Virus genome (UHGV): UHGV-0180032
Length of the DNA: 64,000 bases
DNA from: a virus
Reading direction: 5' to 3' (one strand)
Shown one piece after another: positions 319 to 16,687 of the stretch. The first letter of the stretch is position 1, and every line of letters begins with the position of its first letter. Position numbers and translations under genes: made by a program. The notes beneath the pieces are model-generated. The model was not told the origin of the DNA and did not search any database. It was given only the letters and a program-made list of their open reading frames with translations.

Positions 319-1524
319 TTATTTCGTACCCGCTTCCGCCTGTACGTCATCACGAGACGTCAGGTTAGCGTTAACGTGTACAGCGGCCTGAACCACACCA
401 CCGTATCTCTTGTGGAGATAACCGCTGTGCGGGTTATCTGCCGCGATGTGGTTTTGTAGGTTCTGGTTCGCTTGACTGATTGCGTTCGTGTTATTGTTAA
501 CCTGCTGTTTAAGCGCATCCAGGTTCTGTTGTACCTGATCGATTTTCTGATCGGTTTCTTGACCCTGTTGCTCTAACGCGGCAACACGCTGAATAACCTG
601 ATTCAGTTTTGTGTTTAAATCGTTGATGCTCTTTTGCAGTTGTAACACTAACGAGTTCAGGTTCGCTAACGCTAAAGCCATTTTCTGGTAGTTTTGAGCA
701 ACCACGTTAAGTTGGTCGTTCCACGCTTCCAGAGAGTTGACAACAGCGTCAATACGTTTACCTAAAGCTTCGTCTGCTTTCTTCAGTGCATTGATTTCCG
801 TAATCGTTGCATCGATAGCAGACTGGACGTCACGAATAAGCGCACGGATTTCCGTTTCTGTTAACCCGTTAACCTGATGGATATCAAGATGGTGAACGTT
901 ACCGGTTGCGTTGATGTGCGCATTTAAAGCGTCTAAGAAGTCATTTTTCAGGCTTTCTAAAATCGCTTTAATGTTCTCTAACTGTACCGCGTCACCGGAA
1001 CTGATCGCGTCTTTAATCCCCGCCAATACGGTGATGATATATTCAAAACCGTAGATGTCACCCACGTCTTTATACGTCGGTGCAGACGGGAATGTATCCG
1101 GTACGTTACGCAAGTCTTTAAACGCAATCGTACGGTTATCGAGGTTTAACTCAGCAATCGCCTGTTCGATAGCCACAATGTTCGCAGACTGTGGACCACC
1201 AACGACCTGCGCAGATACCGTAATATCTGTTGGAATCGCTGTGTTAGTGACCACCACCGCCATAACAATCTCGCGGTTTTTAGTCAGCTTTTCATAAGTC
1301 GGGTGTGCAAAAATCAACTCATAATCGGTACCACGTTCGTAGGTTGCATCCGGTCGGTTAGCAACGCGTAAACGGAACGTGTCCGCAAAGAACGGACCAT
1401 CAGGAAAAGCAAAAGCACGGTTTACTTTACCTGTACCTAACGTAATCTGACGCTCCACAGCGTTAGACGTTAGCGTGCCCGTTAAATCTAAAGGATATTG
1501 ATAAACAATGGAGGCCATGGCCAC
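319..1524 (-). CDS. putative tail fibre protein (shared N-terminal anchor domain plus long coiled-coil)
   Basis: 401-aa ORF; AGGAGA RBS just upstream of the ATG at 1524; N-terminal PFF...G-DYEL motif shared with the three upstream giant ORFs; long Q/N/L-rich heptad region; function inferred from architecture only. Confidence 0.5.
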   Translation of the reverse strand: MAMASIVYQYPLDLTGTLTSNAVERQITLGTGKVNRAFAFPDGPFFADTFRLRVANRPDATYERGTDYELIFAHPTYEKLTKNREIVMAVVVTNTAIPTDITVSAQVVGGPQSANIVAIEQAIAELNLDNRTIAFKDLRNVPDTFPSAPTYKDVGDIYGFEYIITVLAGIKDAISSGDAVQLENIKAILESLKNDFLDALNAHINATGNVHHLDIHQVNGLTETEIRALIRDVQSAIDATITEINALKKADEALGKRIDAVVNSLEAWNDQLNVVAQNYQKMALALANLNSLVLQLQKSINDLNTKLNQVIQRVAALEQQGQETDQKIDQVQQNLDALKQQVNNNTNAISQANQNLQNHIAADNPHSGYLHKRYGGVVQAAVHVNANLTSRDDVQAEAGTK

Positions 1525-1558
1525 TCTCCTTTATTCGAGACGTCCTTGTCCCGAGTCA

Positions 1559-4500
1559 TTAAGATGTAAACATAAGATTGAACTGGAGTTTGTCGATATC
1601 GCGAGTTTCTGCCGGATTCACGGCATCGTACGCGGTCGCTACGTAAACGGTTAGCGTACCGTTCGCGTAAGACGATTTCACCGGTGGGTTAGTTCCGGAC
1701 TGACCATCTCGCACAATGAGTGTAGGTTCACTTGGGAGATTGTCAAACTGACCCTTAACCGCTTTATATACCAAACCCGATTGCGCAGCCAGTTCAGTGT
1801 CCGTAAAGACAAAGAACGGTGTGTCGATATCAGCCTGTTTGATTGTAGTACCAGACTCGACGTCAATCAACTGTACCGCCCCAAACTTCGTACGATAACT
1901 TCCATACTCGTTCTTCGGAATAACGAACGTGACATGAACACGAACCTCCTCGGCGGGTTTAAACCCACTGTGCTCTTTTTCCAGGTACTGGTTGGCGGTT
2001 AACGTTACCGTTTGTTCAGTCATCGTACCACCGGCCTGGTTTATTGCATACCGAGCTTCAACAATACCGGTTGGTGCAGCAAGTCGCAGTTTCAGAGCAC
2101 GATTCGCCGTTCCTGGATTACCTGGCACCTGAACGCGCAAACTCAATGTTAGGTAAGCATTCGTTCCGGTAGTCGGTTTCGTATACGCACCAATCCATTT
2201 CATGTTCGCAGACGCTGCCTGCGTGTTCTCAGAAGCAGTGGCTGTCGCAATGTTAGCAGCTACCGCTTTCTGCCAGAATTGGTCAGCGCAGTTCTCATAC
2301 GCTACCCTGGCCACGCTCTTATAACCCGAATACGTTTCCTGAATTGGTAACTTAGGACGCGTCGTAATGCCAGACAGTGAACCCCATTTCTGACCGTCAA
2401 CATACCCTTCACCTTTTGACGCAGACGCCGTAGGTGCTTTAACAGGCTTGTTAACCAGCGTTAATAGAGGACCCGTCTTTCTGTCAAACGCTGCTGCAAC
2501 ATCATGTTGGTCGATAATCGCTGCGTGGTCTTCCAGTTCTTTCACACGGCCCAAGCGTTTTACTTTGTCGATACGGATATCCGTAATACGGTTGGAATCA
2601 GTGGTTACTGTCCCGACGAACAGTCTCGTTGAAGTATCAGCTAACTGCTCCAAACCGATACGGTATTGCGCAGTAGAACCCGACACCTCAGCGTGCACGT
2701 AGAACGTCTGGTTAGCGTGGTTAGACGGGAATTCGCTGCTTAAGTCCACAGACCACGTTGGGAGCGTGTAACTGCTGCTACCGAAGTCTAATTTGACTTC
2801 TTCCGTCAAATATAGAATCCAGCCTTCTGCTGTCTCCACACCGGCAATAATAACAGCCTGACCTTCGGTTGAGAACGTCGTGTCGTTAACAAACTCTGCG
2901 GCTGTATACGCGTTACCTGAACAGAAAACACGGTCAGCTTTAGAGTAAATCAACGCCATCTTGTCCCAATCACCGGCACCCATAAAGCAGCCTGATTCTG
3001 GTCTATGTGCAGGGGCCATCTGTCGTAACTGTGATTTACCTGCAACGCGTGTCCAACCTGAACCAGGGTCGAAGGTATATTTCGCAGCGTAGCCCAGGGC
3101 GTTTAAGTCCCCGATATTTCGGGTAGTTAACGTATAAGGTAGCCAGATACCGAAGTTAGTTCCATCCACAGATGCAAAAATAGGCTGTCCCACGCGCCGC
3201 GTTTTACCACCCCCTTCTTCCCTCAAAGACTGATAACTTAAACCATAATCGAGGTCTAAGAACCAGTCCACCAACTTAAAGGTAGCGGAGTTGAAACGTA
3301 AGTAGCCGTTCTCTTTAGATGGGCTCACCATGAAGTAATAGATGTCCAGAATTCGACGTCCGTTACTTGAGGTTTTCATGCACGAAACTTGCAACAAGTC
3401 AAATTCGCACACGGTGTTGATACCCAACATCCAAAGAGCAAACAATGCATTACCGGTTTGATGGGCAGCACTAATACGTTCGTTCGCGTATCCGTTCGCT
3501 TCACCGGAAGGCGCACCGTCGACGATCATCCGAATCATTTTCTGCCGATCGGCTTCTTCTAACGTTAAACGTTCGGAGGACAACGCGAAATTACCGTAGA
3601 TGTTGCGATACGGGAACGTTTCTGCTTTGGTCAAATACCAACCGTTTAACTGTCCATGACGCTCCTCAGGGATCATACACGCAGCCATACAGCTAAGCTG
3701 CTCGTAAAGCGTCGCATCAACTTCACGACGGTTGTTGTTCGGACCGTACCCACTATACCCAGAAACATCGTAAGGTTTGTTCGGATCAACTTCCACTTCG
3801 ATCGTGTAACGGTTACGAGGGTTCGATAACCAGACCTTATTCGAACCACCAATCCCTACTGGATAAGACAAACCGATGGTGTAAATGGAGCCACGGCCTT
3901 TATCCCAGGTAAACGTTCCTTCGCCCGAGGTGTTGTTTGGGTTATCGTAACGCAGATAATCGAAAAGCTCTCTGCCTTGTGTACTCTTAATAGAAACATT
4001 AGGCATTTGGTCCGCATCGGCAATTTGCCAACAGGAAAGCATCATTCCTGTACCGTTGGGTTTAGCATACGTCGCGAAACAACGGTTGTTTGCCTGGCCA
4101 CCACCCCACTTACGATTGGTTCCTACAGTTGAACCATCTGCGAACGAGAGTGTAGTAGTAGCATCAGCCTTGATGGGGAAGCGTTCGCGGCCTTCTAACG
4201 TAACCTTGCCCGTCAACGTATCGATTGTAAAACTTGTTGCCCATTGAAGGAAATTAATCGTCGTACCGTCGGCCGCTGCAAACCACACGGTAGGCATATG
4301 GTTCACACGAATCACGCTATCGCGCACAGCACACGCGTGGTTACATTCTGGACCGTGAACAAAGTTACGCCCGATCGTCCATTTAGCACGACCCTCCGGT
4401 GTGAGATATGTAAAGAATTGACCCGTTTGCGACTCTTCGGTTTTCTGACCAATACGCAAGCAGAGGTTATCTCCGAATTGTCCCATCTCGCCGGTTAGAG

Positions 4501-6745
4501 TTACACGTTCAAATTCTAACGTAGTGTTAGTAGACAAATCGGCCTTACGTAGACGCCAAGCTGCTACGGCGTAAGCGGAGTTATTTACCGTTGAACGGAG
4601 AAGATAAACGTAGTCCTCAACCAACACGACATCGTCAGCTTCCGGCCACGGGTTCCAGGTTTGTTCCACAGTACCACTGGGGTTGCCGTTACGGTACACG
4701 GGCATCGTAACGCGACATACCACCGTGTGCTTAGTGTGGTCCATCGAGCCATTAAACAGCACCAAATAACGGTTATTGTCAGAACCCAGGCAAATAATCG
4801 CTTCCTGGCCACCGATCAAAATAGCTTTTAGGGTCACTCCAGGATATTTACTCATCCCGGCAGGGTGATATTTCACTGAGGTCTGCTGCGGATTTACAAA
4901 CGCGTTTGACGTGTCAATGTCAGCATAGCCGTAATAAATAGCTTCCGTACCCGGCACGCCGTTAGAACCGTTACGGAGCGAATAAACCTTACCCTGCTGA
5001 TACCCAACAACCCCTTTCTGGTAAGACTGGTTTTTGGTGTAGCCTGCGTAGTTGCCTAACGCTGGGATAGGTAAGAAGTTTTTATTACCGAATTTCGCAC
5101 CGCCTACTGTCCATGCCGGTAAGATGGTATTCAGTTTATCAGAGACCTTCTTAATCTCTTTTGCGAACAACCACCCTTGACGTGACGTGACAGCTTTATC
5201 GTTAGTGGTGTCAATTGCATCCCACAGCTGTAAGATACCATCAACCGTTGCACTACCAATCGGGACGTTATCCAAGTCAGCAGTGGTGTGGGTGTGCGTC
5301 TTCAAACTCTTGTTTTTCAACACGTTCGTTAACGCTTTTGTCACAGGCTTAGCACTCGGTATGGTGTTATCCATCTTATCGATACCGAAATCGGTTTTCG
5401 TTAAGGTTAACACCATGTTGTCGCCCGTCTTAACAAACCCTTTACCGTTAACGGTATAGTCATCGTCAACGTACAAGTCCAACCGGTCTTTTAATTCAGT
5501 TACGGCTTTCTGGGAGATAGCAGTACCTAACGCCGCAGACGTAGAGATATTCGTAATCGAGAACAACCCATAAACTGATTCGGACGCTGTGGGAATATTC
5601 GCGTTTAACGTGACCGGGTTAGTCTGTTTTGCGGTACCGTACGGTTTTACTGTGTCTGACGCTTTGAAATACGCGTTTGCTTCAAGCAACGTTACTGACG
5701 TCAGATACATGTTCACCATTTCTGGTGTAACCAGGTACACAGAGTTATAAACCGGTGCTAATACGTCCTGCTCTGACCCTGAGTGAACCCAAAGTGTATT
5801 CAGACCCGCACTGAATTCAACCGCTAAACCCGATTCGTTGTTGTCCTGGTCTGCTTTAATCACTAACGGTTGTGGCGAGGTAATTAACCACTTATCACCA
5901 CGAATACTGATGATGTGACCACCTGACGTTTTAAACGTTAATTCATTACCGTTCGTGGTGCCCCATCGACCGTAAACGGTGCCGAGGGCTTCACCCATTA
6001 ACTTGTCAACGTCGGATTGCTCAATACCCGCTGACCCCATCAGCGTAGCCAATTCGTCAATCGTTAACCCAAACGCTTTTGTGGCGTCAACCGCACGTCC
6101 TAATACGGGGAGAGCAGCAACGTCATCAGTGGTATAGTGATGCGCGTTAGGATTACGGTGATGCTGGTATAATTCTTCGTCGAAAACCTTTTTCCCGTTC
6201 TCGTAAATCAGGTTAGTGACTTCACTGAACGCAGCATCTAATTCCGTAGAACGTTTGATGATTTTCTTGCGAATGTCTTCTAAAGCCTTAACGACCTCGT
6301 CCCTCAGAATCGCTTCTTCTAAGTTAGCAGGCGGGTCGATAGGCTGAATAACCGGCGCATACGCCATTAGTTCAGACCAGTCCACGTTACGTGGGTCTTT
6401 CAGGTCAGTACGAACTAAGAACTTCCCGATTTCAGATTGCGGTACACGGTATTGACGTGCTACCCCTAAAATCTCGTATTCGATTTCTGTTGCGGTAAGC
6501 AACATAAACCCGCCGTAAATCTGATCCTGCTCAGCTTCGGCGAGTTCTTTAAAGTAATAGCCTAAATAGTAGTCCAACCCCTCAATCAGAGTACGACGTC
6601 CGTTAGGCGCGGTATCGTCGGCTACTGTGAGTTTTAATCCGATACGATAAAAAGGTCCTTCGGGTGGAATGACCACGTTAAATCGGTTAGGGTACGTCGC
6701 TGTGCTTAGCGTACCGTTAAACTGCGCCGCGTCTTCTCTCGGCAT
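1559..6745 (-). CDS. giant virion fibre/tailspike-like protein (1728 aa)
   Basis: Uninterrupted 5.2-kb ORF; AGGAGT RBS before the ATG at 6745; N-terminal motif (EGPFY...GLDYYL) paralogous to neighbours; size and Gly/Thr/Asn-rich composition typical of receptor-binding fibres. Confidence 0.55.
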   Translation of the reverse strand: MPREDAAQFNGTLSTATYPNRFNVVIPPEGPFYRIGLKLTVADDTAPNGRRTLIEGLDYYLGYYFKELAEAEQDQIYGGFMLLTATEIEYEILGVARQYRVPQSEIGKFLVRTDLKDPRNVDWSELMAYAPVIQPIDPPANLEEAILRDEVVKALEDIRKKIIKRSTELDAAFSEVTNLIYENGKKVFDEELYQHHRNPNAHHYTTDDVAALPVLGRAVDATKAFGLTIDELATLMGSAGIEQSDVDKLMGEALGTVYGRWGTTNGNELTFKTSGGHIISIRGDKWLITSPQPLVIKADQDNNESGLAVEFSAGLNTLWVHSGSEQDVLAPVYNSVYLVTPEMVNMYLTSVTLLEANAYFKASDTVKPYGTAKQTNPVTLNANIPTASESVYGLFSITNISTSAALGTAISQKAVTELKDRLDLYVDDDYTVNGKGFVKTGDNMVLTLTKTDFGIDKMDNTIPSAKPVTKALTNVLKNKSLKTHTHTTADLDNVPIGSATVDGILQLWDAIDTTNDKAVTSRQGWLFAKEIKKVSDKLNTILPAWTVGGAKFGNKNFLPIPALGNYAGYTKNQSYQKGVVGYQQGKVYSLRNGSNGVPGTEAIYYGYADIDTSNAFVNPQQTSVKYHPAGMSKYPGVTLKAILIGGQEAIICLGSDNNRYLVLFNGSMDHTKHTVVCRVTMPVYRNGNPSGTVEQTWNPWPEADDVVLVEDYVYLLRSTVNNSAYAVAAWRLRKADLSTNTTLEFERVTLTGEMGQFGDNLCLRIGQKTEESQTGQFFTYLTPEGRAKWTIGRNFVHGPECNHACAVRDSVIRVNHMPTVWFAAADGTTINFLQWATSFTIDTLTGKVTLEGRERFPIKADATTTLSFADGSTVGTNRKWGGGQANNRCFATYAKPNGTGMMLSCWQIADADQMPNVSIKSTQGRELFDYLRYDNPNNTSGEGTFTWDKGRGSIYTIGLSYPVGIGGSNKVWLSNPRNRYTIEVEVDPNKPYDVSGYSGYGPNNNRREVDATLYEQLSCMAACMIPEERHGQLNGWYLTKAETFPYRNIYGNFALSSERLTLEEADRQKMIRMIVDGAPSGEANGYANERISAAHQTGNALFALWMLGINTVCEFDLLQVSCMKTSSNGRRILDIYYFMVSPSKENGYLRFNSATFKLVDWFLDLDYGLSYQSLREEGGGKTRRVGQPIFASVDGTNFGIWLPYTLTTRNIGDLNALGYAAKYTFDPGSGWTRVAGKSQLRQMAPAHRPESGCFMGAGDWDKMALIYSKADRVFCSGNAYTAAEFVNDTTFSTEGQAVIIAGVETAEGWILYLTEEVKLDFGSSSYTLPTWSVDLSSEFPSNHANQTFYVHAEVSGSTAQYRIGLEQLADTSTRLFVGTVTTDSNRITDIRIDKVKRLGRVKELEDHAAIIDQHDVAAAFDRKTGPLLTLVNKPVKAPTASASKGEGYVDGQKWGSLSGITTRPKLPIQETYSGYKSVARVAYENCADQFWQKAVAANIATATASENTQAASANMKWIGAYTKPTTGTNAYLTLSLRVQVPGNPGTANRALKLRLAAPTGIVEARYAINQAGGTMTEQTVTLTANQYLEKEHSGFKPAEEVRVHVTFVIPKNEYGSYRTKFGAVQLIDVESGTTIKQADIDTPFFVFTDTELAAQSGLVYKAVKGQFDNLPSEPTLIVRDGQSGTNPPVKSSYANGTLTVYVATAYDAVNPAETRDIDKLQFNLMFTS

Positions 6746-6759
6746 CGTAAAGACTCCTA

Positions 6760-6801
6760 CTTTTAAATAAAATGGATACCCCTCCCCATTACAGGGAGGG
6801 G
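6760..6801 (-). terminator. hairpin (partial terminator) between two fibre genes
   Basis: Stem CCCTCCCC/GGGAGGGG at 6780-6801 followed on the minus strand by CCATTTTATTT; lies between the stop at 6840 and the start at 6745. Confidence 0.4.
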
Positions 6802-6839
6802 TTACCTACGGACACACAACTGCCCGCAGGCAGCCTGTC

Positions 6840-9800
6840 CTAAGTACGATCCCCTAACTGCTTCCCGTTAAGTTCTCGTTTCAGTACAGAAAGTATCCAT
6901 TTCCACGCTTTACTCGTGATGTGGTACGGATTGCGTTTCTCCATTAAGAACTGCTTTTCACCGCTACGCAGTTCGAAGCTCTGCGCATTAAGCTGATCCT
7001 GACGAGTGCTTTGCTCATCGGTCACATCTAACGAACAGGTAAAGTTAAGCTCGTAACCTTCAGGATTATTACCCGGCGGGTCTAAGACAATATAGATGTC
7101 CTGACCTACACGTAAGTCGGTGGCCGTGATACTAATCGCTTTACCTACGTCAGCGCTGGTCGACAGAGCAAACTCCGCACTGTCCGTAGACGCTAAGAAT
7201 GGGTCTTTCCCTGCGTCACCGATAATCACCTTACCTGGCCAGTTACTTTTTATCGTTCCCGTCACTTTTGCAATTCGGTACTGTTGTTTATCGGCACCTT
7301 GTGCAAAACGGAGAATGAGTTTGTGACGATAACGACTTGCAGCAGCCTTAGTCGTACTCCACTCGTTGTTCCAGGAAGTGTGCAGTTCGTTGTTCTTCGC
7401 CATCAACGCACCGCGAGACAGCTTACGATCAAAGAACTGCGCAGGTAACTGCCCATCATGAGAAACCGCAACGCTTCCCTGACCAGTTGGCAAGGCAATG
7501 CTCTCCGTAACGCGATATTTCTGACTAATCTCATAAGTCGCAGGGTCAATCACAGACTGACTATAATCAGCGTCTTTGTTATCAGCCAAATACCCAACGG
7601 ATGAATCCAGATACGACTCAAACAGCGAACGTAAGTAATGATACTTATCAATGTTGATGTTGTTCGTAACCGGATCAATCAGCGCATGGCTAATCGTTAC
7701 TCGGCATTTCGCACTCAGTTCTTTAAACGACAACCCTATTCCGTCACCGGTGAAATAATCCACTAAGTCGAACGGGAATTGAATTTCCAACTGACGTTGT
7801 TTAACTGTCGTCGTCCCAAACTGCGAGAACGACAACGCTAAACGCAGCACACGCGTACTTACGTTATAACGGTAACGAATCATCCCACGAGGTGCATGGT
7901 TTGCAGAGATTTTATCTCGAGCGGCACCCCAGCCAATCAAATCGAGAATCGCGGGGTTGGTTTCTTCACCGTTGAACAACACGTCCTTAAACGTTGCATT
8001 CACCGCTGTTTCCCCAGACTCTTCCATTACCAACGGAATGTCAGTAACGTCTGAAACTGAACGGGAACCAATCCCCAACTTGCACGCTTTGGCCGTCAGA
8101 TCGATACGTACGTAACGGCGTTTAACACTCGCCCCTTGCGTTGACGTACACAGCACCAAATCCGGTGCAGCAGTAAGTGCTTGTGTTCCACCGACGTCGT
8201 CAACGTCAAACACAAACGAACCTTCGAATGTCGGTGCGTTGTTTTCTTTCGGGTTAAACGGTGTAAACCAGCAATACGGTGTAGCGCCTTCAGGTATCAC
8301 AACGTACTGAAGACTGGACTTCACGTTTTGGTTGTGTGCGTAAGTATAAAGACCACGACTGACAAGATGGAAAACATCACCTGTACCGGCTGCTAACGCT
8401 TTCCTAAAGATACACGCTCTCGGTTCGGCAATGGCACGGTTTAATAACGGCAACCGTGGGTTATCCGTTAACGCCCAGTCCACAGAACTGAGTCCGTGTG
8501 CTTTACGCGTGGCGATGTGTCCACTAACCTCGGCACTTTTCCCGAAATCAAACGTGGTTTCGAACCCTACCGTTTTATTCGCGTAATTCTCACCAGCAAC
8601 AATATCAACGTAACCGATATAACCGCGTTCAGGATCAACCGCGACGCTCTGAATCGGTTCAGCACGCGAATACAGAGAGCCTGTGAGCATGTTAACGTAC
8701 AGATAGTGACGAATCCCTACGTGCGTGGTAACAAACTCCTGGAGAAGCTCTACGCGCGTTTCAGGGCCACTGAAGTAAACGGGGTAATCCCCATCGTAAA
8801 CTTCAAACTGTACCGCTGCGGACTTAGCCGTATCGCTACATTCGGCTTTAACCGCTATTGTGTAGTTTTCAACGTCTGATGACGTTTCGTACACTGCAAC
8901 GAGCGGAGACTCGCCTGACGCTGCCAGGTTACCGTTAATGTAAACCGTAACCGGACCGCCGCCCGCAGCATAAACCCAGAGCTTTGATTGGTACGCCCTT
9001 ACACGCGTTTTTGCCAGTACCGTAACCACTGACTGGTCACCCATCTGAGTAGCGGTTTTACCTACCGCAACAGACTGGAATCCCATCAACGGCGGTTCTT
9101 CAATACCTGTCCAGTTGATTCCCGTACCGTTACTCACCTTACCCGTAGGCCAAGTCAGTTCAAGCTGGTTGTTAGGTGAGAACCAGTTAAACATCGGGGT
9201 GGTTTGCAGGTCAATCGCACCAGTAACGGTACTGTCGCCTTTCGTCCCGTCCAGCAAATAGAAATATTTCAAATCCTGAACAGAGATTGACGTACCCTGG
9301 CTATTAAAACGCCAGTCCGCACCTTTCACAGCAGCAAAATCGGTTACCGTACCTTCTTTCGCGTTTGCAATTGCCGCAGCGACCACATCTAAACGTGCTG
9401 AAAGCTCTTTTAGGATGTTCGGTACCACCGCTCGGTTTTCAACTAAGCCGTTCTGGTTAGTTGCGTAACGACCAATACCGTAAATCGTCTGCGAGGCTTT
9501 ATAAATGCCTAACTCTGACCAGTCGTGATGGTGACCGACATCTGCTAAACCACTAACCGAAGCATTCAGTGCGGTAGACAACGGTTTGTCAAGGTCTGCG
9601 GTGTTATCCGCTTGCCCTAATCCCAGGTCAGCTTTCGTGATTGTCCTGGAACCGTCGTTCATCGGCTTACCGTTAATCATGGTCGTTTTAGTCACGTACC
9701 CTGATAAGTCGGTTGAATACGGCGTTAATGACGCAGGAGTTGCTGCAACCCCAACCGTTTCTGTGCCTTTACCGGTTTTAAGCTTAACAACACCTTTTTC

Positions 9801-11024
9801 AGCGGTGGTCGCTTTCGTCGGGTCGATAGTCCCCACGATGGGATCGGCACGAGAACCTTTACCGGTAAAACTAATCCCGTTACGGCCTTCGATATACACT
9901 TTGGAGTCATCAGGATCGCTACCGCCACTCCCGCCAGCATCAGGGTCTTGCTGATACTCCATCAGCGCTGTGGTGGTCAACAACGGGTTACCGTTCAGGG
10001 TGAGTTTGTTCATCCCTAAAGCGTCACCGGTTGACTCGATGCGTAAGGTGTTTTTACCCGCACGCCAGTTAATGTAACGCCCCGCACCTGTGCCTTCCAG
10101 ATGCCCTACCGCTAATACCACAGAACCGTTGGATTTTAACGTAAAGCCATCATTCGCAAAAATGATTTCGGATTCACCGTTTTTCGAACGGAATTGTGCG
10201 CGGTTTCCAGACACCGTACAGTTAAACACGCCCCGTACTTCCGAAGAAATCCAGTGGGAGATATACGTGTCAATAACTGACTGTGGTAAACGAAACGCTT
10301 TCAGTTCATCCGTTAACGCTTTCAATTTTAACCCGTACGCCATAAAGGTGTCAGGTGTTTTCAGGTTAACGGGATGGGCATTAATTTGTGCGCTCGTGGT
10401 TTCGTGCGGGTTCGTCGCGGCGATATGTGCTGGGTAGTTAAACGCTTCAATTTCTTTCCCCAACGCAGTCACTAGCACTTTAACTTCGGCTATTTTATCC
10501 TTAATTAGCTGGTTAGCGTCATCGGTTTTCAACTCAATATCGTGAATCGCTGACGCTAAGTATTTTTTGTTCAGCAAATCCGCCCAGGACGTTGCCGCAG
10601 GCGTAGCTGGGTATAACGACGGTCTACCGTCTAACAACAGCCAGTCTGCACTGACTGGGTTATTCAGATATTTCACCAACTCGTCGAGCATGTCAACGAA
10701 CGGGTCGTAGAACGTACCGCCGAGCATTTGTCCTTCAAAGGTTACGATCCCTTTGATGGATGGGTTGATAAGGTGTACCCCACAATACACGTTGGCTGCT
10801 ACCGAGTCATCCAGTTCCGTCAGCTGATATTGCAGTTCGTAGTCCACCCCACGGCTCAGTGGGGTGGTTGAACCTGGTTGTCTGACGACTAAGTCTTCAA
10901 AGAACGGGCGATGGTCTAAAATCACCACCCGGTCATTGTTGTTTTCTGACCCGATGATACGCTCCTCTAAGAAGTGATTCTCGGTTTTCGTCCCCCGAGG
11001 ATCGTAAGGATACGCTTTCATCAA
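6840..11024 (-). CDS. giant virion fibre/tailspike-like protein (1394 aa)
   Basis: Uninterrupted 4.2-kb ORF; starts 10 nt downstream of the preceding gene; N-terminal motif (HRPFFEDL...GVDYEL) shared with neighbours. Confidence 0.55.
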   Translation of the reverse strand: MMKAYPYDPRGTKTENHFLEERIIGSENNNDRVVILDHRPFFEDLVVRQPGSTTPLSRGVDYELQYQLTELDDSVAANVYCGVHLINPSIKGIVTFEGQMLGGTFYDPFVDMLDELVKYLNNPVSADWLLLDGRPSLYPATPAATSWADLLNKKYLASAIHDIELKTDDANQLIKDKIAEVKVLVTALGKEIEAFNYPAHIAATNPHETTSAQINAHPVNLKTPDTFMAYGLKLKALTDELKAFRLPQSVIDTYISHWISSEVRGVFNCTVSGNRAQFRSKNGESEIIFANDGFTLKSNGSVVLAVGHLEGTGAGRYINWRAGKNTLRIESTGDALGMNKLTLNGNPLLTTTALMEYQQDPDAGGSGGSDPDDSKVYIEGRNGISFTGKGSRADPIVGTIDPTKATTAEKGVVKLKTGKGTETVGVAATPASLTPYSTDLSGYVTKTTMINGKPMNDGSRTITKADLGLGQADNTADLDKPLSTALNASVSGLADVGHHHDWSELGIYKASQTIYGIGRYATNQNGLVENRAVVPNILKELSARLDVVAAAIANAKEGTVTDFAAVKGADWRFNSQGTSISVQDLKYFYLLDGTKGDSTVTGAIDLQTTPMFNWFSPNNQLELTWPTGKVSNGTGINWTGIEEPPLMGFQSVAVGKTATQMGDQSVVTVLAKTRVRAYQSKLWVYAAGGGPVTVYINGNLAASGESPLVAVYETSSDVENYTIAVKAECSDTAKSAAVQFEVYDGDYPVYFSGPETRVELLQEFVTTHVGIRHYLYVNMLTGSLYSRAEPIQSVAVDPERGYIGYVDIVAGENYANKTVGFETTFDFGKSAEVSGHIATRKAHGLSSVDWALTDNPRLPLLNRAIAEPRACIFRKALAAGTGDVFHLVSRGLYTYAHNQNVKSSLQYVVIPEGATPYCWFTPFNPKENNAPTFEGSFVFDVDDVGGTQALTAAPDLVLCTSTQGASVKRRYVRIDLTAKACKLGIGSRSVSDVTDIPLVMEESGETAVNATFKDVLFNGEETNPAILDLIGWGAARDKISANHAPRGMIRYRYNVSTRVLRLALSFSQFGTTTVKQRQLEIQFPFDLVDYFTGDGIGLSFKELSAKCRVTISHALIDPVTNNINIDKYHYLRSLFESYLDSSVGYLADNKDADYSQSVIDPATYEISQKYRVTESIALPTGQGSVAVSHDGQLPAQFFDRKLSRGALMAKNNELHTSWNNEWSTTKAAASRYRHKLILRFAQGADKQQYRIAKVTGTIKSNWPGKVIIGDAGKDPFLASTDSAEFALSTSADVGKAISITATDLRVGQDIYIVLDPPGNNPEGYELNFTCSLDVTDEQSTRQDQLNAQSFELRSGEKQFLMEKRNPYHITSKAWKWILSVLKRELNGKQLGDRT

Positions 11025-11034
11025 AAAATTCTCC

Positions 11035-14000
11035 TTAATCGCGAATGATTACCGCCTGCACTTTATTGTTGGTGTCGATAAACGACATTACGCGCTCCTT
11101 GTTAAGATAAGGAGGTATCGGCAACGCAGCATAATCCGCCAGGTTGTTATTAAACTCGGTTGCCACTAACGCATTAAGCGTTTCAGGGTCTGAGCTTGTC
11201 CCGGCCAATTCCACGACGCGTACACGATTTAACGAGGAGTAGTTGCTGATATAATCCAACAGCGTACCGTAGAGTTTATTCCCGGTTATGCTGTCCGCCG
11301 TAGAGCGGATATTGGCACGCACTTCGTCCTCATAAAGTCCCCCTAATCCGTAGTAAATAGGGGTGTACGGATCGTTAACGATAGGCGCGAGGTTGAACCC
11401 GGTTAAACGGTCGGTCAGCGAGATTTTCTGCGTAGTACCACCTGCCGCCGTACAGCTTACGTATTTATCTGCCGCAGACAAATACACCACAATAGTGTAA
11501 ACAGTACCTGCTAAGGTCAGCGTTGCGTTAAACGTTAATTCGTTATTCGCACCACGCGTGTGGGTAAATGTCACATCAGGTTGTAACGTACTCCACGGTG
11601 CTGGGGTAACACGTTTGGTCGGCGTGAAGCCTAACACCACAGATCTCCCGTTACCGAAGTTTAAACCAAACCCGGCGTAACAATACTCACCGTTGCTGTC
11701 AGTTAAACGATAACCACGGGTGATAAGTAACGACAACCGCATAAACTCGTCATCGGTATTTTTCCAGCAACCCAGGATGGTTTCTAGCACCGTACCGGTT
11801 TTTGCGTTGCTTTCGGTTTCCCAACTGACTCGCATCCCCGTATTGTTAAATACTGGGAACAGGTTGTGGATAAACCCGTGAACGTTATCACTTACCCCTT
11901 TCGCATCAAACACCCACTTCGACGCAAGCTGGTCGTATTTCACACCGTCGAGTGCTTTATATCCGCCGCCAACCACATAACGCCAGTCTGCTTCACCACG
12001 CACAACCGCTTGAAGTCCAGAAGCCCAGCAGGGCGCACCTACTGTTAAATTGCTTAACCCCAGCACTGCACGTGAAGCAGAACGCTGAATGTGTGCGTTG
12101 TCATTAGCGACATGGTCTTTCAGCTCACGGAAATCCCCTAACCGTGTCACGTTACGTAGTTCAGTAACGAACACTTCAGAAAGGTCGTTAATACCGATCA
12201 ACCCCACGCGCGTCATGATATCCGTTTCAGCCTGACTGTAGCTGTCGTGAATAATGTACTTCGCTTTGTTATCGACAATGTCAACAAAAATCCCTGCGTA
12301 AACTTCCTTATTCAGATTCGGGAAACGTTCGGTAACGTTAACCGACATCAACGGTACGTTGTACGTTTCACCACCAATGAAATACGTGGAAGCAGGAAGT
12401 GTCACCAGGATTTTGTCTTTAACCGTAACGTCAATTAAGTCGTTACCGGACTTACCAAAGCGAATAATGTCAACTCGCGCACCCGAGTCAACCCCGCCGA
12501 CGGTATTCTCCAGTTTTTCAATCTGGGAAGTCTGCGCCATCACCACACTACTATCGAGTGCTAAAGTGACATCATCCACATCCAGACCGAACTTAATCAG
12601 ACCCCGTTTCGTGGTGTCTGCGTTTTCAACACCGAACACAGAAGACGGGTGTTGGTGAACCTTCGGTGAGTATTTGTCTAACTCAGTCTGCTGTGCAACA
12701 GAAATCGGCAAGTCGAGGTCCGGGGTATTCGCAACATTACCTAAACCAAAGGTAATTTTGTCGATAGTCACCGAACTGGTAAGCTGCATGTCGTTGATAT
12801 ACGACTTGGCAGCAACTAACTTACCGGTAAACTCTGCGTCTAGTTTTTCAATTAACGCGGGTGTAGCTGCAAGGTTTTCAGCCGTACCGAATTCGTCCGT
12901 TAACTGCCAGCAGGCTAACGTTGTGACGTCGTTGGCAACCGGAAGGATAAACGTTGCGACAAACGGTGATGCTTTAATCCCGCTGCCAGTAAGTTCCACG
13001 GTAGACGTCGACGCACCGTAGAACAGACCTGTACCGCCTGCGGTATTACCCGGCAAATACGGACCGACCGTAGTGGGGTCTAAGAGTTTCTTACCACGCC
13101 ACAACAGTCCACGGTCATCGGGGTATAGCACAAGCTGGTTATCGCCTGCCTGTAACGTAACAGGGTTGTTACCCGCATTAACATCGGTGGAGCCTTGACC
13201 GATAAACTTAATGGACTTCGGATCAACGACGAACTGGGCACCTAAACGTTTTTCGTCAACTACACCAGGTGCTTTCTTAATGGTAACCGTGTTACCTTTG
13301 TTTTGCGAACTAATAGAGACGCCGTCAGCAACATTATTGATCAGCGATTTAAAGTGATACCGATTCTCTAATGCTTCTAACGCAGAGTCCATGTTATCGA
13401 AGTTAATCCGGGCGCTATACGTTTTACCGTTTACGGTAATAACGGCGTCAAACACGTTCCCTGTACGCTTCAGTTGAAAACGCAGCGTAAAATCCCCATC
13501 CGGTATTGCTGGATCAGGAGCTTGAGAAATATACCGAACTGACGGTACCGGACTCCCGTAACCGTGCAACGACAGTTCGATAGTAAGAGTACCACCCCAG
13601 ACTTCACCGAAAATCTCTACGTACTTACCGGAGTTACTACCGGGATTTTCGTAGAAACGTAAACCGGCCCTACCGACTGCCTCATTACCAGACGCTGTTT
13701 TACGTCCAGTAACAATAAAGTCAATATCTTGCAGGTTAGCGGGTACCGCATTAAAAGAAGCACTAAATCCATTCTTCGTTCCTGTGTAACGAAGCGCGCC
13801 GTGATACGTGCGGCCTTGACTAACATAGCTTTCGCTAAAATAAGGACTCACGTATTTAGACATCGAAACCGGATCAACTTCTGTCGTGAACGAAGTAAAA
13901 CCGGGCAGCGTTCCAATGGTTCCGTCGGCCGTTTTCGTAGTTGACGTGCGCAGTAGTTTCTTTTGCGCAGCCAATGTTGCTTGCGTTGGATACTTAGCAT

Positions 14001-15357
14001 TAACATAATCTGTTAACTGCGGCTTCGTTTTTCCGTAAGCTAACGCTGTATCCGTCGCAATACCATTCAACTCTAACGCACGGATCGGGCCCCACGTATC
14101 GTTGTGCGGGTTGTCCTTACGTGTAACGTGTTCGTGCGCAGGTGCGTTGCGATAGAGCTGTTCTACTAACTGATGGTACTTAACGATTAGCTGATAAACG
14201 TCATTACTTACGTCTGCTTCTGGCGCACCAGGTAACGCAAGGAATTGAGCGTAATCGTTTTCAGCCGCCCACCAGTTTAAGTTAACGTTGGTTTTGTATT
14301 TCAGCCACTTCGCAACATCCGTTTTGGTGTAACCTGCTGAAAATTCGTCTGGCGGTGTGTCAACGTTAAAGGTGTAGTCCATGGACTGTTTGTTAGTCGT
14401 CACCTCGATAACGTATACACCGTTACCCGGTTGACGAACAACGCTAAACGTTAACTCGCCTTTTAATTCGTCGTCGGTCAAACCGTTGATTAACGTATAA
14501 TCATAATCGGTCGAACCGCTGCCTAACGCAACCGTCAGTCGTAGACCGATTTTACGTTGTTTTAATTGGAGACGAAGGATACTTGCACCACCGTTCGCGT
14601 AGCACAGCATCCAATCGATTTGTTCGTTCGGGTTAATACTCCCCATGTTCGGAAAAATAGCCGGGATACGGTATTTCATCGACAGGGAATATTCATTTAA
14701 CGTGGTGGTTTTGTACGTAACGGAGAAACGACGTTTAGCGGTGTTGTAAGTATACCCACCTTTGTTGTCGTACGTTGCGTACTGTTCAGATGTGATAACC
14801 GTACCATTAGCACGGTGTTCGATATCTAACGTGTTACGTGCAATCGGGTCTACCCGATTCACCACGTTACCTAACGAATCACCTAAGCCTGCAATGGCCT
14901 GCATTAATTCCAGTTCACCTTTCCAGTTTTCCCAGTCGAACTGAATGTCAACCGGTGGAAAGTAAACGTCGCCGATAACGGTATCCCATTGACACGCAGA
15001 CGGGTATTTATCTTTATTGAGTTCGCGTTCTGCGGTAATCTGTTCTTGGGTCGCTTCACCACAACCTACGGCGTGGTAATCTACCGTGAAATTCGATTTG
15101 TATTTGTCGTTAACAATCCAAATCATCCCGTGCACGAGATAGGCTGTGCGCAACATACCGGTCTCGTACGGGTGTGTAATAACGTAATCGTCGCCTAAGG
15201 TCAGTATTTTGCCGCCGCTCTTGACCACCAGGGATGTGGTGAAAAAAGGGGCGTGGGCAGGTACCAACATTCGGTACTTCGTACCAATGACGGCGACCGC
15301 TTCACCGGTTATTTTATTCCCCGGTTCTTTGAAGTGTGGGTCTAGGACGACAGCCAT
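11035..15357 (-). CDS. giant virion fibre/tailspike-like protein (1440 aa)
   Basis: Uninterrupted 4.3-kb ORF, first gene of the minus-strand operon; AGGAG RBS; N-terminal motif (HAPFFTT...GDDYVI) shared with neighbours. Confidence 0.55.
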   Translation of the reverse strand: MAVVLDPHFKEPGNKITGEAVAVIGTKYRMLVPAHAPFFTTSLVVKSGGKILTLGDDYVITHPYETGMLRTAYLVHGMIWIVNDKYKSNFTVDYHAVGCGEATQEQITAERELNKDKYPSACQWDTVIGDVYFPPVDIQFDWENWKGELELMQAIAGLGDSLGNVVNRVDPIARNTLDIEHRANGTVITSEQYATYDNKGGYTYNTAKRRFSVTYKTTTLNEYSLSMKYRIPAIFPNMGSINPNEQIDWMLCYANGGASILRLQLKQRKIGLRLTVALGSGSTDYDYTLINGLTDDELKGELTFSVVRQPGNGVYVIEVTTNKQSMDYTFNVDTPPDEFSAGYTKTDVAKWLKYKTNVNLNWWAAENDYAQFLALPGAPEADVSNDVYQLIVKYHQLVEQLYRNAPAHEHVTRKDNPHNDTWGPIRALELNGIATDTALAYGKTKPQLTDYVNAKYPTQATLAAQKKLLRTSTTKTADGTIGTLPGFTSFTTEVDPVSMSKYVSPYFSESYVSQGRTYHGALRYTGTKNGFSASFNAVPANLQDIDFIVTGRKTASGNEAVGRAGLRFYENPGSNSGKYVEIFGEVWGGTLTIELSLHGYGSPVPSVRYISQAPDPAIPDGDFTLRFQLKRTGNVFDAVITVNGKTYSARINFDNMDSALEALENRYHFKSLINNVADGVSISSQNKGNTVTIKKAPGVVDEKRLGAQFVVDPKSIKFIGQGSTDVNAGNNPVTLQAGDNQLVLYPDDRGLLWRGKKLLDPTTVGPYLPGNTAGGTGLFYGASTSTVELTGSGIKASPFVATFILPVANDVTTLACWQLTDEFGTAENLAATPALIEKLDAEFTGKLVAAKSYINDMQLTSSVTIDKITFGLGNVANTPDLDLPISVAQQTELDKYSPKVHQHPSSVFGVENADTTKRGLIKFGLDVDDVTLALDSSVVMAQTSQIEKLENTVGGVDSGARVDIIRFGKSGNDLIDVTVKDKILVTLPASTYFIGGETYNVPLMSVNVTERFPNLNKEVYAGIFVDIVDNKAKYIIHDSYSQAETDIMTRVGLIGINDLSEVFVTELRNVTRLGDFRELKDHVANDNAHIQRSASRAVLGLSNLTVGAPCWASGLQAVVRGEADWRYVVGGGYKALDGVKYDQLASKWVFDAKGVSDNVHGFIHNLFPVFNNTGMRVSWETESNAKTGTVLETILGCWKNTDDEFMRLSLLITRGYRLTDSNGEYCYAGFGLNFGNGRSVVLGFTPTKRVTPAPWSTLQPDVTFTHTRGANNELTFNATLTLAGTVYTIVVYLSAADKYVSCTAAGGTTQKISLTDRLTGFNLAPIVNDPYTPIYYGLGGLYEDEVRANIRSTADSITGNKLYGTLLDYISNYSSLNRVRVVELAGTSSDPETLNALVATEFNNNLADYAALPIPPYLNKERVMSFIDTNNKVQAVIIRD

Positions 15358-15424: not shown

Positions 15425-16687
15425 GTGACTACTGCTTATCAAGTGCGGCCTGACAGCGCTTTTGGCTTCTCTCGTGAGACCCGTACCTGGGGAGCCATCG
15501 ACGTCACGCAACCCTTAGAAACCTTGTGTTCTGATTACCATATTTTCGAAGTCGGTCTGAGTGCGCTTGGTAGAGACTATACGTTAATTAGCCAATATCA
15601 CCTCGCTGACTTACAAAACCGTACCGATACGTTACAAGACTGGCTGAATGAAAAAGCCGGTGTGGTTATCTCTGCGTTGAAAGACGGTTTACCGACGTTA
15701 GAGTTTGATTGGGCACACTACCAATCGATTAATGCCGATGTTCCAGTAGAAACCTACCTGTGCCCTCCTGGTTATCACTACAGTCAAGAATTCAGTATAG
15801 ACGATGCTGACGACGTTGTGGTGGTGTGTGAAGATAAATGGAAAGACAAGTACCGTAACGGGGTGTTGTACAACATCAACGGACAGTGGGTGCCGCATCA
15901 ATCCGATACTGTTGGTGTACGTTTACCGGGTGCAGGTAAAATAGTACGTCGCGCAGGGACACCGGATATCGGGTGTATGGTCTTTAGTAAATTGGGGAAT
16001 GTTAAAACGTACCCCATTGCTAATTTGACCTTAAACAAACTCGACACCACTCGCGACTATTACTCCACGTTAATGATTTCTTTACCGGAATCTATTACAG
16101 GTAAAACCGTGGGGTTTGTTATCGGGGGATTGATACACTGGTTACCGGTTACTGGGTACTTCTCCGACAAAGCCATTATGGTATCGCTACCGAACTTTGA
16201 CGTTGCGCGTACGGTGTTAGAAACCCGACGTTATTACGACTGGGACAGCATTGGCGTGGGTGATTTGTCATCACCGACCAACGTACAGCGTATCCGTAAC
16301 CCAGAAACGTTAAAGGCGCTTTTAACCCACGAGTCGTCGTTTATCTTTACGGTGGATAATCCGTATCTGGAAGAAGAAGTTGTGGGGGTTTCTCACAACG
16401 CTATCTGGGGGCGTTTATACCTTAAAGATCCTACTGACCCTGATGGGGAAAAACAACTGGGGTATCTGTTAAACCGCTTCGGTAAAACCGTTGCCTATTG
16501 GCCGACGTGGGAAGAAGGAGAATGGGTATTTAACACCACGGAGTTCGACAGTCAAAACTACGTGTTCCGTGAAGCCCGCTGGTATAACCAGAATAAAATT
16601 AACGATGCACAGGCAATCGTAGGGCCTTTCGGTCCCTGGGAAAAAGTCTATTTAGAAATGCATCGTTTCCGTGCAAGAAAAAAATAA
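15425..16687 (+). CDS. hypothetical protein (420 aa)
   Basis: Long ORF; GTG at 15425 preceded by GAGGAAAA is preferred because the ORF-track start at 15209 would overlap the divergent gene ending at 15357; followed by a strong terminator. Confidence 0.5.
   Translation: MTTAYQVRPDSAFGFSRETRTWGAIDVTQPLETLCSDYHIFEVGLSALGRDYTLISQYHLADLQNRTDTLQDWLNEKAGVVISALKDGLPTLEFDWAHYQSINADVPVETYLCPPGYHYSQEFSIDDADDVVVVCEDKWKDKYRNGVLYNINGQWVPHQSDTVGVRLPGAGKIVRRAGTPDIGCMVFSKLGNVKTYPIANLTLNKLDTTRDYYSTLMISLPESITGKTVGFVIGGLIHWLPVTGYFSDKAIMVSLPNFDVARTVLETRRYYDWDSIGVGDLSSPTNVQRIRNPETLKALLTHESSFIFTVDNPYLEEEVVGVSHNAIWGRLYLKDPTDPDGEKQLGYLLNRFGKTVAYWPTWEEGEWVFNTTEFDSQNYVFREARWYNQNKINDAQAIVGPFGPWEKVYLEMHRFRARKK

What the first reader, a model, noticed from the sequence alone, without database searches (positions are those of the whole stretch)
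319..15357. Four consecutive giant fibre-like genes with a common N-terminal module
Proteins of 401, 1728, 1394 and 1440 aa share an N-terminal segment of about 60 aa (hydrophobic-x-P-x-x-PFF/Y ... G-x-DY-E/Y-L) and then diverge completely. This architecture fits a conserved virion-attachment domain fused to different receptor-binding or depolymerase modules, that is, a multi-fibre adsorption apparatus. About 15 kb of the window is devoted to it.
Basis: partly seen in the sequence, partly recalled or inferred. Interest (0 to 1): 0.5.

Follow-up and report, generated by a model that had tools for sequence, protein, structure and literature searches.

The report
Jumbo-phage baseplate fibre gene array
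These four neighbouring genes encode the tail-fibre proteins of a phiKZ/SPN3US-type giant phage, which share an N-terminal domain that anchors them to the baseplate; this gene family is already described, so the window adds a new member and not a new kind of system.

Summary
The four minus-strand ORFs exist as described: A 401 aa (probably 399), B 1728, C 1394 and D 1440. The shared N-terminal module is real, but it is about 130 aa long, not 60. It extends to about 220 aa in A and C.

The claim that the proteins then "diverge completely" is wrong. B, C and D share a colinear shaft of about 350-390 aa that carries typical fibre motifs. B and D share a further domain of about 120 aa. Only the distal 500-1100 aa are unique.

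The array is orthologous to SPN3US gp167-170 and Asesino gp187-190. The module is the "gp131-like N-terminal domain" of phiKZ gp131/133/134/135.

Published work shows that the SPN3US orthologues are virion proteins and that gp168-170 are missing from tailless particles. In phiKZ, six such N-domains plus a six-helix bundle form the base of each of 12 fibres, docked beneath gp130. A gp130 homologue (window 15425-16687, + strand) lies next to the array and is transcribed divergently, as in all nine chimallivirus loci examined.

The distal part of B models as a beta-propeller plus lectin-like beta-sandwiches. I found no beta-helix depolymerase and no S74 chaperone.

Verdict: a new member of a known kind.

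The parts
319..1524 (-). Gene A: short fibre-base protein of 401 aa from the GTG, or more likely 399 aa from the ATG at 1518. It is the orthologue of SPN3US gp167 and Asesino gp187. Its layout is the N-module, helices, a coiled-coil helix of about 140 residues and a short tail carrying an NPH motif.
   Evidence: ORF. RBS and ATG. The database orthologues are 399 aa. It is 77% identical to the Asesino and SPLA3 orthologues. AF2 model: beta domain at residues 12-110, helices at 111-125 and 160-204, long helix at 223-361, pLDDT 72.8. SPN3US gp167 (44.8 kDa) is detected in virions.
1559..6745 (-). Gene B: fibre protein of 1728 aa, orthologue of SPN3US gp168 (188 kDa) and Asesino gp188.
   Evidence: ORF. 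PHROG 7449 matches the full length. Synteny and size match. SPN3US gp168 is a tail protein rated 'expected essential' (PMC5105663).
6840..11024 (-). Gene C: fibre protein of 1394 aa (TTG start; an ATG follows one codon later), orthologue of SPN3US gp169 and Asesino gp189.
   Evidence: (PHROG 8078 over the full length).
11035..15357 (-). Gene D: fibre protein of 1440 aa, orthologue of SPN3US gp170 and Asesino gp190. It carries an extra segment of about 200 aa (residues ~500-700) that is missing from three orthologues.
   Evidence: (PHROG 7557). The same 1440-aa form occurs in a Logan contig.
1120..1524 (-). gp131-like N-terminal module of A (aa ~1-135).
   Evidence: HMM and hhalign results. AF2 beta domain.
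6353..6745 (-). gp131-like N-terminal module of B (aa ~5-131). This is the most diverged of the four copies.
10620..11024 (-). gp131-like N-terminal module of C (aa 1-135).
14968..15357 (-). gp131-like N-terminal module of D (aa 1-130).
5078..6244 (-). Shared helix-plus-shaft region of B (aa 168-556), running from an NPN/H motif at 198 to FG..DKPVT at 453 and HTH at 484.
   Evidence: hhalign B-C 1.2e-25 and B-D 9.6e-10. Motif positions.
9465..10532 (-). Shared helix-plus-shaft region of C (aa 165-520), with NPH at 205, LGLG..DKPLS at 467 and HHH at 498.
12445..14226 (-). Shared shaft region of D (aa 378-971), interrupted by the ~200-aa insert; NPH at 416, FGLGNV..DLPIS at 870 and HQH at 901.
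2504..2878 (-). Conserved distal domain of B (aa 1290-1414), shared with D. It also occurs as the free-standing Goslar protein gp028.
   Evidence: hhalign B-D 5.2e-10. The B HMM matches Goslar gp028 at 3.3e-8. The invariant residues of the B alignment cluster here.
12091..12462 (-). The same conserved distal domain in D (aa 966-1089).
1562..5077 (-). Distal 1172 aa of B: an all-beta, multi-domain region with a beta-propeller and carbohydrate-binding-like beta-sandwiches. Domain borders were not mapped.
6746..6839 (-). Intergenic region between C and B, holding two conserved hairpins. The second (6802-6778) is followed by a T-run and is probably a terminator or attenuator within the array.
   Evidence: Compensatory changes are seen in Asesino and SPLA3.
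15425..16687 (+). Divergently transcribed gp130-like gene (420 aa; orthologue of SPN3US gp171). It is the probable docking platform for the fibre base.
   Evidence: BLASTP to the phiKZ-type gene at the gp130 position 4e-12 and to Goslar gp030 3e-21. The same adjacency is found in 9 loci. SPN3US gp171 is listed as the homologue of phiKZ ORF130 and is essential. phiKZ fibres dock beneath gp130.

Best explanation
The four genes encode the protein set of the baseplate-attached tail fibres of a chimallivirus, that is, a phiKZ/SPN3US-type jumbo phage.

Each protein starts with a 'gp131-like' N-terminal beta domain of about 130 aa followed by an alpha-helix. By analogy with phiKZ, six such N-domains and their six helices pack into one fibre base, which docks under the gp130-like peripheral baseplate protein encoded next door (window 15425-16687).

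Beyond the base, B, C and D continue as a homologous shaft of about 350-390 aa. The shaft carries classic fibre nodes: NPH, GLG..N..D.DKP and HxH motifs. The three proteins then end in long, rapidly evolving, all-beta distal regions that most likely bind host surface structures. In B this region is a beta-propeller plus lectin/CBM-like sandwiches. A carries only a coiled coil about 20 nm long and probably serves as the structural partner in the base.

Shown here: homology of the module, the domain map, conserved synteny with the gp130-like gene, the gradient of conservation from N-terminus to C-terminus, and the fold class of distal B.

Taken from the literature on relatives: presence in virions, location in the tail, and the hexameric fibre base.

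Inferred: that the same hexameric assembly applies in this phage, and that the distal domains are the receptor binders.
For: - The module is homologous to phiKZ-type gp131/133/134/135 and to Goslar gp25/gp29. Evidence is an HMM built from the window alone, leave-one-out HMMs and hhalign probabilities of 90-97% to the gp131 N-terminus.
- The array is orthologous and syntenic with Asesino gp187-190, SPLA3/SPN3US gp167-170 and Phobos gp169-172.
- SPN3US gp167-170 are found in purified virions. gp168-170 are absent from tailless particles (PMC5694885; PMC5105663).
- phiKZ cryo-EM shows 12 fibres. Each fibre base has six gp131-like N-domains and a six-helix bundle beneath gp130 (PMC13250141).
- A gp130 homologue lies adjacent and divergent in the window and in all nine loci examined.
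- The family numbers 3412 representative proteins. The module is N-terminal in all 150 best matches. The C-termini include Peptidase_S74 (19 of 74), Collar, Gp53-like_C and Phage_fiber_2.
- Identity falls from the N-terminus to the C-terminus, as is typical of receptor-binding proteins.
- Distal B has propeller and lectin-like folds.
- The AF2 model of A shows a beta domain, helices and a long coiled coil.
Against: - Nothing was measured on this phage itself; virion location and assembly are transferred from SPN3US and phiKZ.
- The phiKZ fibre base was modelled by docking AlphaFold models into maps of about 4.4-4.6 A. The authors call its composition (gp131x3 + gp133 + gp134 + gp135) a 'candidate'.
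- The window's B N-terminus was not recovered by the leave-one-out HMM.
- The distal parts of C and D were not modelled.
- The SPN3US receptor is reported to be the flagellum (PMC11428620), and no link between that receptor and these proteins has been shown.
Confidence: 0.78

Rival explanations
1. Each of the four proteins forms its own homotrimeric fibre or spike. All four use the same N-terminal adaptor to plug into equivalent baseplate sites, giving a multi-fibre, multi-receptor apparatus like those of phi92, CBA120 or G7C.
For: - Most phage fibres are homotrimers.
- 19 of 74 family members end in the Peptidase_S74 chaperone, which is typical of homotrimers. Goslar gp25 is one of them.
- HxH and NPH motifs usually lie on a three-fold axis.
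- Some relatives have only two paralogues, which would fit two homotrimers per base.
Against: - phiKZ cryo-EM finds six N-domains and a six-helix bundle at every attachment site, and the two kinds of site look alike. The paralogues are therefore not distributed one per site.
- Each paralogue type is old and separately conserved. The A, B, C and D clades have 90-100% bootstrap support, and A groups with Goslar gp25 at 93%. This suggests the positions are not interchangeable.
- A has no distal binding domain at all.
Confidence: 0.15
2. The proteins are structural parts of the oversized peripheral baseplate, such as struts or braces, and have no direct role in host recognition. Receptor binding is done by other proteins, for example the DUF7941 'fibre cloud' or the collar filaments.
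For: - phiKZ gp131 was first located at the baseplate periphery (cited).
- Goslar has other candidate host-recognition elements.
- DUF7941 genes lie near the array in a close relative.
- The distal folds are only generic.
Against: - Purely structural proteins would not be expected to show a steep fall in identity towards the C-terminus.
- They would also not be expected to show mosaicism and insertions in distal parts.
- Relatives carry bona fide fibre-tip domains.
- Canonical fibre motifs are present.
Confidence: 0.06
3. The distal regions are enzymatic depolymerases, that is, tailspike-like glycosidases that degrade capsule or O-antigen.
Against: - No Pfam, NCBIfam or PDB sequence match to any enzyme family was found.
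- No beta-helix appears.
- Lectins and Kelch propellers score as well as the enzymes.
- Sequence identity is 5-10%, and catalytic residues could not be checked.
Confidence: 0.05

Closest known systems
phiKZ gp131 / gp133 / gp134 / gp135 tail-fibre paralogues (Sycheva 2012; phiKZ structural atlas, PMC13250141)
   Same: - They share the homologous N-terminal domain and the following helix.
- In phiKZ too there are four tandem paralogues.
- The array lies next to a divergently transcribed gp130 homologue.
- The tail-fibre role was inferred in both systems.
   Different: - The phiKZ proteins are much shorter: 771, 462, 457 and 463 aa, against 401-1728 aa here.
- Beyond about residue 260 no sequence similarity was detected.
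- The gp131 seven-bladed propeller (PDB 4GBF) has no sequence counterpart here, although B has a propeller of its own.
- phiKZ has one long and three short paralogues. This phage has one short and three long.
SPN3US 'paralog family C' (gp168, gp169, gp170) plus gp167 (Ali 2017, PMC5694885; Thomas 2016, PMC5105663)
   Same: - These are direct orthologues in the same order and of nearly the same sizes.
- Identity is 48-53% for B-D and 77% for A.
- gp171 is the orthologue of the gp130-like neighbour.
   Different: - The published family lists three members. gp167 (the A orthologue) carries no paralogue-family label there, yet it has the module.
- The window's D has an extra ~200 aa.
- The distal thirds are only 13-35% identical, so the binding specificity is probably different.
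Goslar gp25 and gp29 (Goslar structure preprint, 10.64898/2026.04.21.720040)
   Same: - They carry the same N-module and have a gp130-like gene (gp030) next door.
- They were detected in virions.
- The N-domain of A groups with that of gp25 (93% bootstrap).
   Different: - Goslar has only two paralogues, of about 700 aa each.
- gp25 ends in a Peptidase_S74 chaperone, which is absent from A-D.
Generic myovirus and R-pyocin tail fibres (for example PDB 6CL6 and 6CT8)
   Same: Short fibre motifs are shared: 'W..I.GKP..FPP.H.H', the NPH nodes, GLG..N..D.DKP and HxH.
   Different: Only the motifs match. There is no domain-level homology, and the N-terminal attachment domain is unrelated to anything in the PDB by sequence. 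By fold the best Foldseek match has E 0.05.

Membership tests
phiKZ gp131-like fibre proteins | gp131-like N-terminal domain at the extreme N-terminus | tested here: met
   An HMM from the window alone retrieves the phiKZ-type gp131/133/134/135. hhalign probabilities are 90-97% for A-D against the gp131 N-terminus. The module lies at residues 1-~135 in all four proteins.
phiKZ gp131-like fibre proteins | An alpha-helix after the N-domain that can contribute to the six-helix bundle | tested here: inconclusive
   The AF2 model of A has helices at 111-125 and 160-204. For B, C and D this is only inferred, from homology of that stretch to A and C. No multimer model could be run.
phiKZ gp131-like fibre proteins | Genomic adjacency to a gp130 homologue (the docking protein) | tested here: met
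   The literature equates SPN3US gp171 with phiKZ ORF130.
phiKZ gp131-like fibre proteins | Physical location at the fibre-attachment sites of the peripheral baseplate | not testable with these tools
   This is known only for phiKZ (cryo-EM). It is indirectly supported for the SPN3US orthologues by virion MS and the tailless mutant.
phiKZ gp131-like fibre proteins | C-terminal seven-bladed beta-propeller of gp131 (PDB 4GBF) | tested here: not met
   There is no hhalign or HMM match of A-D to gp131 residues 374-771. B has a propeller-type domain by fold only. This feature is specific to gp131 and is not shared by gp133-135, so it does not define the family.
SPN3US gp167-170 orthologue set | Full-length homology, same order and orientation, same neighbours | tested here: met
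   Full-length PHROG matches. Synteny with SPLA3 (a Seoulvirus) and Asesino. Identity is 48-77%.
Tailspike depolymerases (right-handed beta-helix) | Beta-helix or pectate-lyase-like catalytic domain | tested here: not met
   No Pfam hit for B, C or D at E<=0.1. The distal B model gives no beta-helix matches. The distal parts of C and D were not modelled.
Fibres with an intramolecular chaperone (Peptidase_S74) | C-terminal Peptidase_S74 domain | tested here: not met
   The domain is absent from A-D. It is present in Goslar gp25 and in 19 of 74 other proteins carrying the module.
Glycoside-hydrolase or sialidase beta-propellers | Propeller fold together with conserved catalytic residues | tested here: inconclusive

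The most novel reading that the evidence does not exclude
Each fibre base may be a hetero-hexamer A3·B·C·D. Three copies of the short coiled-coil protein A would pair with one copy each of B, C and D. The colinear shafts of B, C and D would form a heterotrimer, and the three chains would then splay into three different giant distal arms, so that a single fibre carries three distinct binding heads. This would mirror phiKZ, where a homotrimer of the long gp131 is proposed to pair with one copy each of the three short paralogues.

Hints in favour:
- Both phages have four paralogues.
- The N-domain of A groups with Goslar gp25 and lies near phiKZ gp133-135. B and C lie near Goslar gp29 and phiKZ gp131 (only the A-gp25 grouping is well supported).
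- The spacing from the NPH motif to the HxH motif is nearly the same: 286 aa in the window's B, 293 in the window's C and 277-281 in the D orthologues of Asesino, SPLA3 and Phobos.
- SPN3US spectral counts per kDa are similar for gp168, gp169 and gp170 (1.08, 1.41, 1.00) and higher for gp167 (1.90).

Points against:
- Spectral counts are crude.
- The window's D has a 200-aa insert inside the shaft.
- Equal shaft lengths follow from homology alone.
Probability: 0.25. Interest if true: 0.55.

Novelty: new member of a known kind. Interest (0 to 1): 0.3.

Why it matters
Fibres decide which bacteria a phage can attack, and jumbo chimalliviruses are being developed for therapy and biocontrol. This analysis links the SPN3US-type four-gene array, including the so far unassigned gp167-type protein, to the fibre-base architecture just resolved in phiKZ. 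It also shows that the gp130-like gene plus 2-4 genes carrying the gp131-like module form a conserved cassette across the family. Finally, it marks where the conserved base and shaft end and the exchangeable distal parts begin, which is the information needed to design host-range swaps. It does not reveal a new kind of system.

Tried and rejected
- PDB sequence searches found nothing, apart from coiled-coil noise for A. I searched with A, B, C and D singly and with profiles of B, C and D.
- A profile of the broad family hit only a short fibre motif in R-pyocin fibres and one collar fibre.
- Pfam and NCBIfam gave no domain for B, C or D.
- Foldseek of the A model against the PDB gave nothing better than E 0.05. 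The top weak hits were small phage tail or neck proteins, and I did not rely on them.
- I suspected an internal duplication in D (aa ~190-370 against ~500-690). Local alignment scored no better than shuffles (z 0.2), so I rejected it.
- Thomas 2016 lists phiKZ ORF145 as the homologue of gp168. My HMMs of B-D did not match the large tail genes downstream in the phiKZ-type locus, so I could not reproduce that link.
- Pairwise BLAST alone would have under-called the N-terminal similarity (A-B E 0.13, C-D E 0.45). Profiles were needed.
- No tRNA or Rfam element lies in the window.
- The sigma-70 promoter and terminator scans gave counts no higher than shuffled sequence, so I did not use them, except for the conserved hairpin between C and B.
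Full report
**What is in the window**

Four ORFs lie head to tail on the minus strand:
- A: 319-1524, 401 aa
- B: 1559-6745, 1728 aa
- C: 6840-11024, 1394 aa
- D: 11035-15357, 1440 aa

Each is preceded by an AGGAG ribosome-binding site. For A the spacing favours the ATG at 1518, giving 399 aa, which is the length of all database orthologues.

The window belongs to a jumbo phage of the SPN3US/Asesino group of phiKZ-like phages (Chimalliviridae). At the DNA level it matches known phages only in patches, at about 76% identity. A Logan metagenome contig carries a near-identical array.

**Is the shared N-terminus real?**

Yes.
- The independent profile PHROG 2163 matches all four N-termini, at E 2e-104 to 3e-17.
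- An HMM built only from the four window N-termini picked out, among 216 ORFs of the window and five related loci, only the orthologues plus Goslar gp25/gp29 and the phiKZ-type gp131/133/134/135.
- HMMs trained without one paralogue group recover A, C and D at 1e-10, 1e-12 and 9e-8.
- The window's B N-terminus was missed in that test. B is nevertheless linked to C at E 1.2e-25 over 480 residues that include the module.
- No other ORF of the window carries the module.

**Corrections to the observation**

The module is about 130 aa, not 60. In A and C the homology runs on to about residue 220.

The proteins do not diverge completely:
- B168-556, C165-520 and D378-971 are homologous.
- B1290-1414 matches D966-1089.

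The shared shaft carries textbook fibre motifs at matching positions. These are a His-rich NPH node, then FG/LG..N..D.DKP, then HxH about 30 residues later. The NPH-to-HxH spacing is 286 aa in the window's B, 293 in the window's C and 277-281 in the D orthologues of Asesino, SPLA3 and Phobos. The window's D has an extra ~200 aa inside this region.

A is not a giant protein. Its AF2 model (pLDDT 72.8) shows the beta domain, two helical segments, a single helix of 139 residues and a short tail.

**What the module is**

The literature already describes this family.
- In SPN3US, gp168, gp169 and gp170 are 'paralog family C'. They are baseplate or tail-fibre candidates similar to phiKZ gp131. They were found in virions by mass spectrometry and are missing from tailless particles (PMC5694885). 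gp168 is a tail protein rated 'expected essential' (PMC5105663).
- The sizes and order of the genes in SPLA3 (a Seoulvirus), Asesino and Phobos match the window.
- The A orthologue, gp167 (44.8 kDa), is also a virion protein, but it carries no paralogue-family label in that paper's table. Placing it in the family is a small addition.
- The 2026 phiKZ structural atlas (PMC13250141) reports 12 peripheral fibres. [quoted passage not shown] The proposed composition is three gp131 plus one each of gp133, gp134 and gp135.
- hhalign ties A-D to the gp131 N-terminus at 90-97% probability.

**The docking partner**

The gene transcribed divergently from D (15425-16687, 420 aa) is homologous to the phiKZ-type gene at the gp130 position (E 4e-12) and to Goslar gp030 (E 3e-21). 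Its SPN3US orthologue gp171 is essential, tail-associated and listed as the phiKZ ORF130 homologue.

In all nine chimallivirus loci examined, a gp130-like gene sits back to back with the first gene carrying the module. The loci are the window, the Logan relative, Asesino, SPLA3, Phobos, Goslar, a phiKZ-type phage, PCH45, RP31 and RAY. The number of paralogues per locus is two, three or four.

**Breadth of the family**

A profile of the module finds 3412 representative proteins among 1.84 billion, 2409 of them at E<=1e-10. In each of the 150 best matches the module is at residues ~1-137, and total length ranges from 135 to 1727 aa. Of 74 proteins scanned against Pfam:
- 19 end in Peptidase_S74
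- 3 carry Gp53-like_C
- 3 carry PKD domains
- 2 carry the tail Collar domain
- 1 carries Phage_fiber_2

The module is therefore a general N-terminal adaptor of fibre proteins with exchangeable distal ends.

**The distal parts**

Identity to the Asesino orthologues falls from 75-86% in the first 100 residues to 32-41% in the last few hundred. Against SPLA3 it falls as low as 13% at the end of B. This gradient is what is expected of receptor-binding proteins.

No Pfam, NCBIfam or PDB sequence match exists for B, C or D.

An AF2 model of B557-1728 (pLDDT 73.7) is almost entirely beta, with several well-folded domains.
- Foldseek adds CBM61- and PA14-like sandwiches and weak hits to lambda gpJ.
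- No beta-helix appears.

These matches fix the fold class, which is typical of carbohydrate-recognising proteins. They do not decide between binding and catalysis.

The conserved domain shared by B and D also exists as a free-standing small protein, Goslar gp028, encoded right after the fibre gene gp029.

**How it most likely works**

The N-domains and helices of the paralogues assemble into a fibre base that docks under the gp130-like protein on the peripheral baseplate. The shafts of B, C and D extend from it and present variable distal domains to the host surface. A supplies a coiled coil.

This rests on homology shown here and on experiments in SPN3US and phiKZ. The assembly state in this phage is inferred.

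Each paralogue type is old and separately conserved. Clade support is 90-100%, and A groups with Goslar gp25 at 93%. This argues for distinct, non-interchangeable positions in the base.

**Open question**

It is unresolved whether the giants form homotrimers or a B·C·D heterotrimer beside an A trimer.
- SPN3US spectral counts per kDa are similar for gp168-170 (1.08, 1.41, 1.00) and higher for gp167 (1.90). That is compatible with a 3:1:1:1 ratio but is far from proof.
- I could not run multimer predictions.

**Verdict**

The depolymerase and chaperone suggestions found no support. 'Four separate fibres' may really be one hetero-oligomeric fibre type. The system is a new member of a family already known from proteomics, genetics and cryo-EM, so interest is modest.

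Noticed in passing
window 6746-6839 (- strand), between the stop of C and the start of B: Two conserved hairpins. The second (6802-6778, ACCCCTCCCTGTAATGGGGAGGGGT) is followed by a T-run. It keeps its pairing through compensatory changes in Asesino and SPLA3. It is probably an intrinsic terminator or attenuator that splits the fibre array into two transcription units (D-C and B-A). Phobos has no such spacer.
   Followed up: partly
window 12445-14226 (D aa ~500-700): The window's D, and the D of its Logan relative, carry about 200 extra residues inside the otherwise conserved shaft. Residues 200-400 are 64-65% identical to SPLA3 but only 17-25% identical to Asesino. This points to recombination or mosaicism within the gene. 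A suspected internal duplication was not supported (z 0.2).
   Followed up: partly
L003 16354-16869 (Goslar gp028), compared with window 2504-2878 and 12091-12462: The conserved distal domain of B and D occurs as a separate 171-aa protein encoded immediately after the Goslar fibre gene gp029 (E 3e-8). It may correspond to the small phiKZ gp132. This suggests a fibre-associated connector domain that is either fused or free-standing.
   Followed up: no
window 15425-16687 (+): The ORF finder starts this gene at a TTG at 15209, which would overlap the 5' end of D. The annotated orthologues (Asesino gp191, 420 aa) indicate a start near 15425. This gene is the gp130/gp171-like baseplate protein.
   Followed up: partly
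window 17148-18113 (-): A 321-aa gene whose matching stretch in related phages is annotated 'baseplate assembly protein' or 'baseplate puncture protein'. It shows that the fibre array sits inside a baseplate gene neighbourhood.
   Followed up: no
window 61076-63961 (-) and 58829-61030 (-): The ORF at the window end (961 aa as listed) matches only positions 1443-2405 of a 2408-residue PHROG labelled 'tail fiber protein'. The gene therefore probably continues beyond the window. It has an SLT lytic transglycosylase domain (Pfam E 2e-8). Its size and domain content suggest the tape-measure-like giant tail protein of SPN3US-type phages. The neighbouring 733-aa gene belongs to PHROG 3181, of unknown function.
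   Followed up: no
L006 17150-18287 and 20954-21200 (close relative of the window, downstream of A): Several small DUF7941 genes lie a few kb beyond gene A in the closest relative. This is the family proposed to form a 'fibre cloud' on Goslar. The window ends before that region.
   Followed up: no
whole window: No tRNA genes and no Rfam family reach threshold. GC content is slightly higher (0.47-0.50) over the fibre genes and at the far end than in the middle of the window (0.42-0.46).
   Followed up: yes
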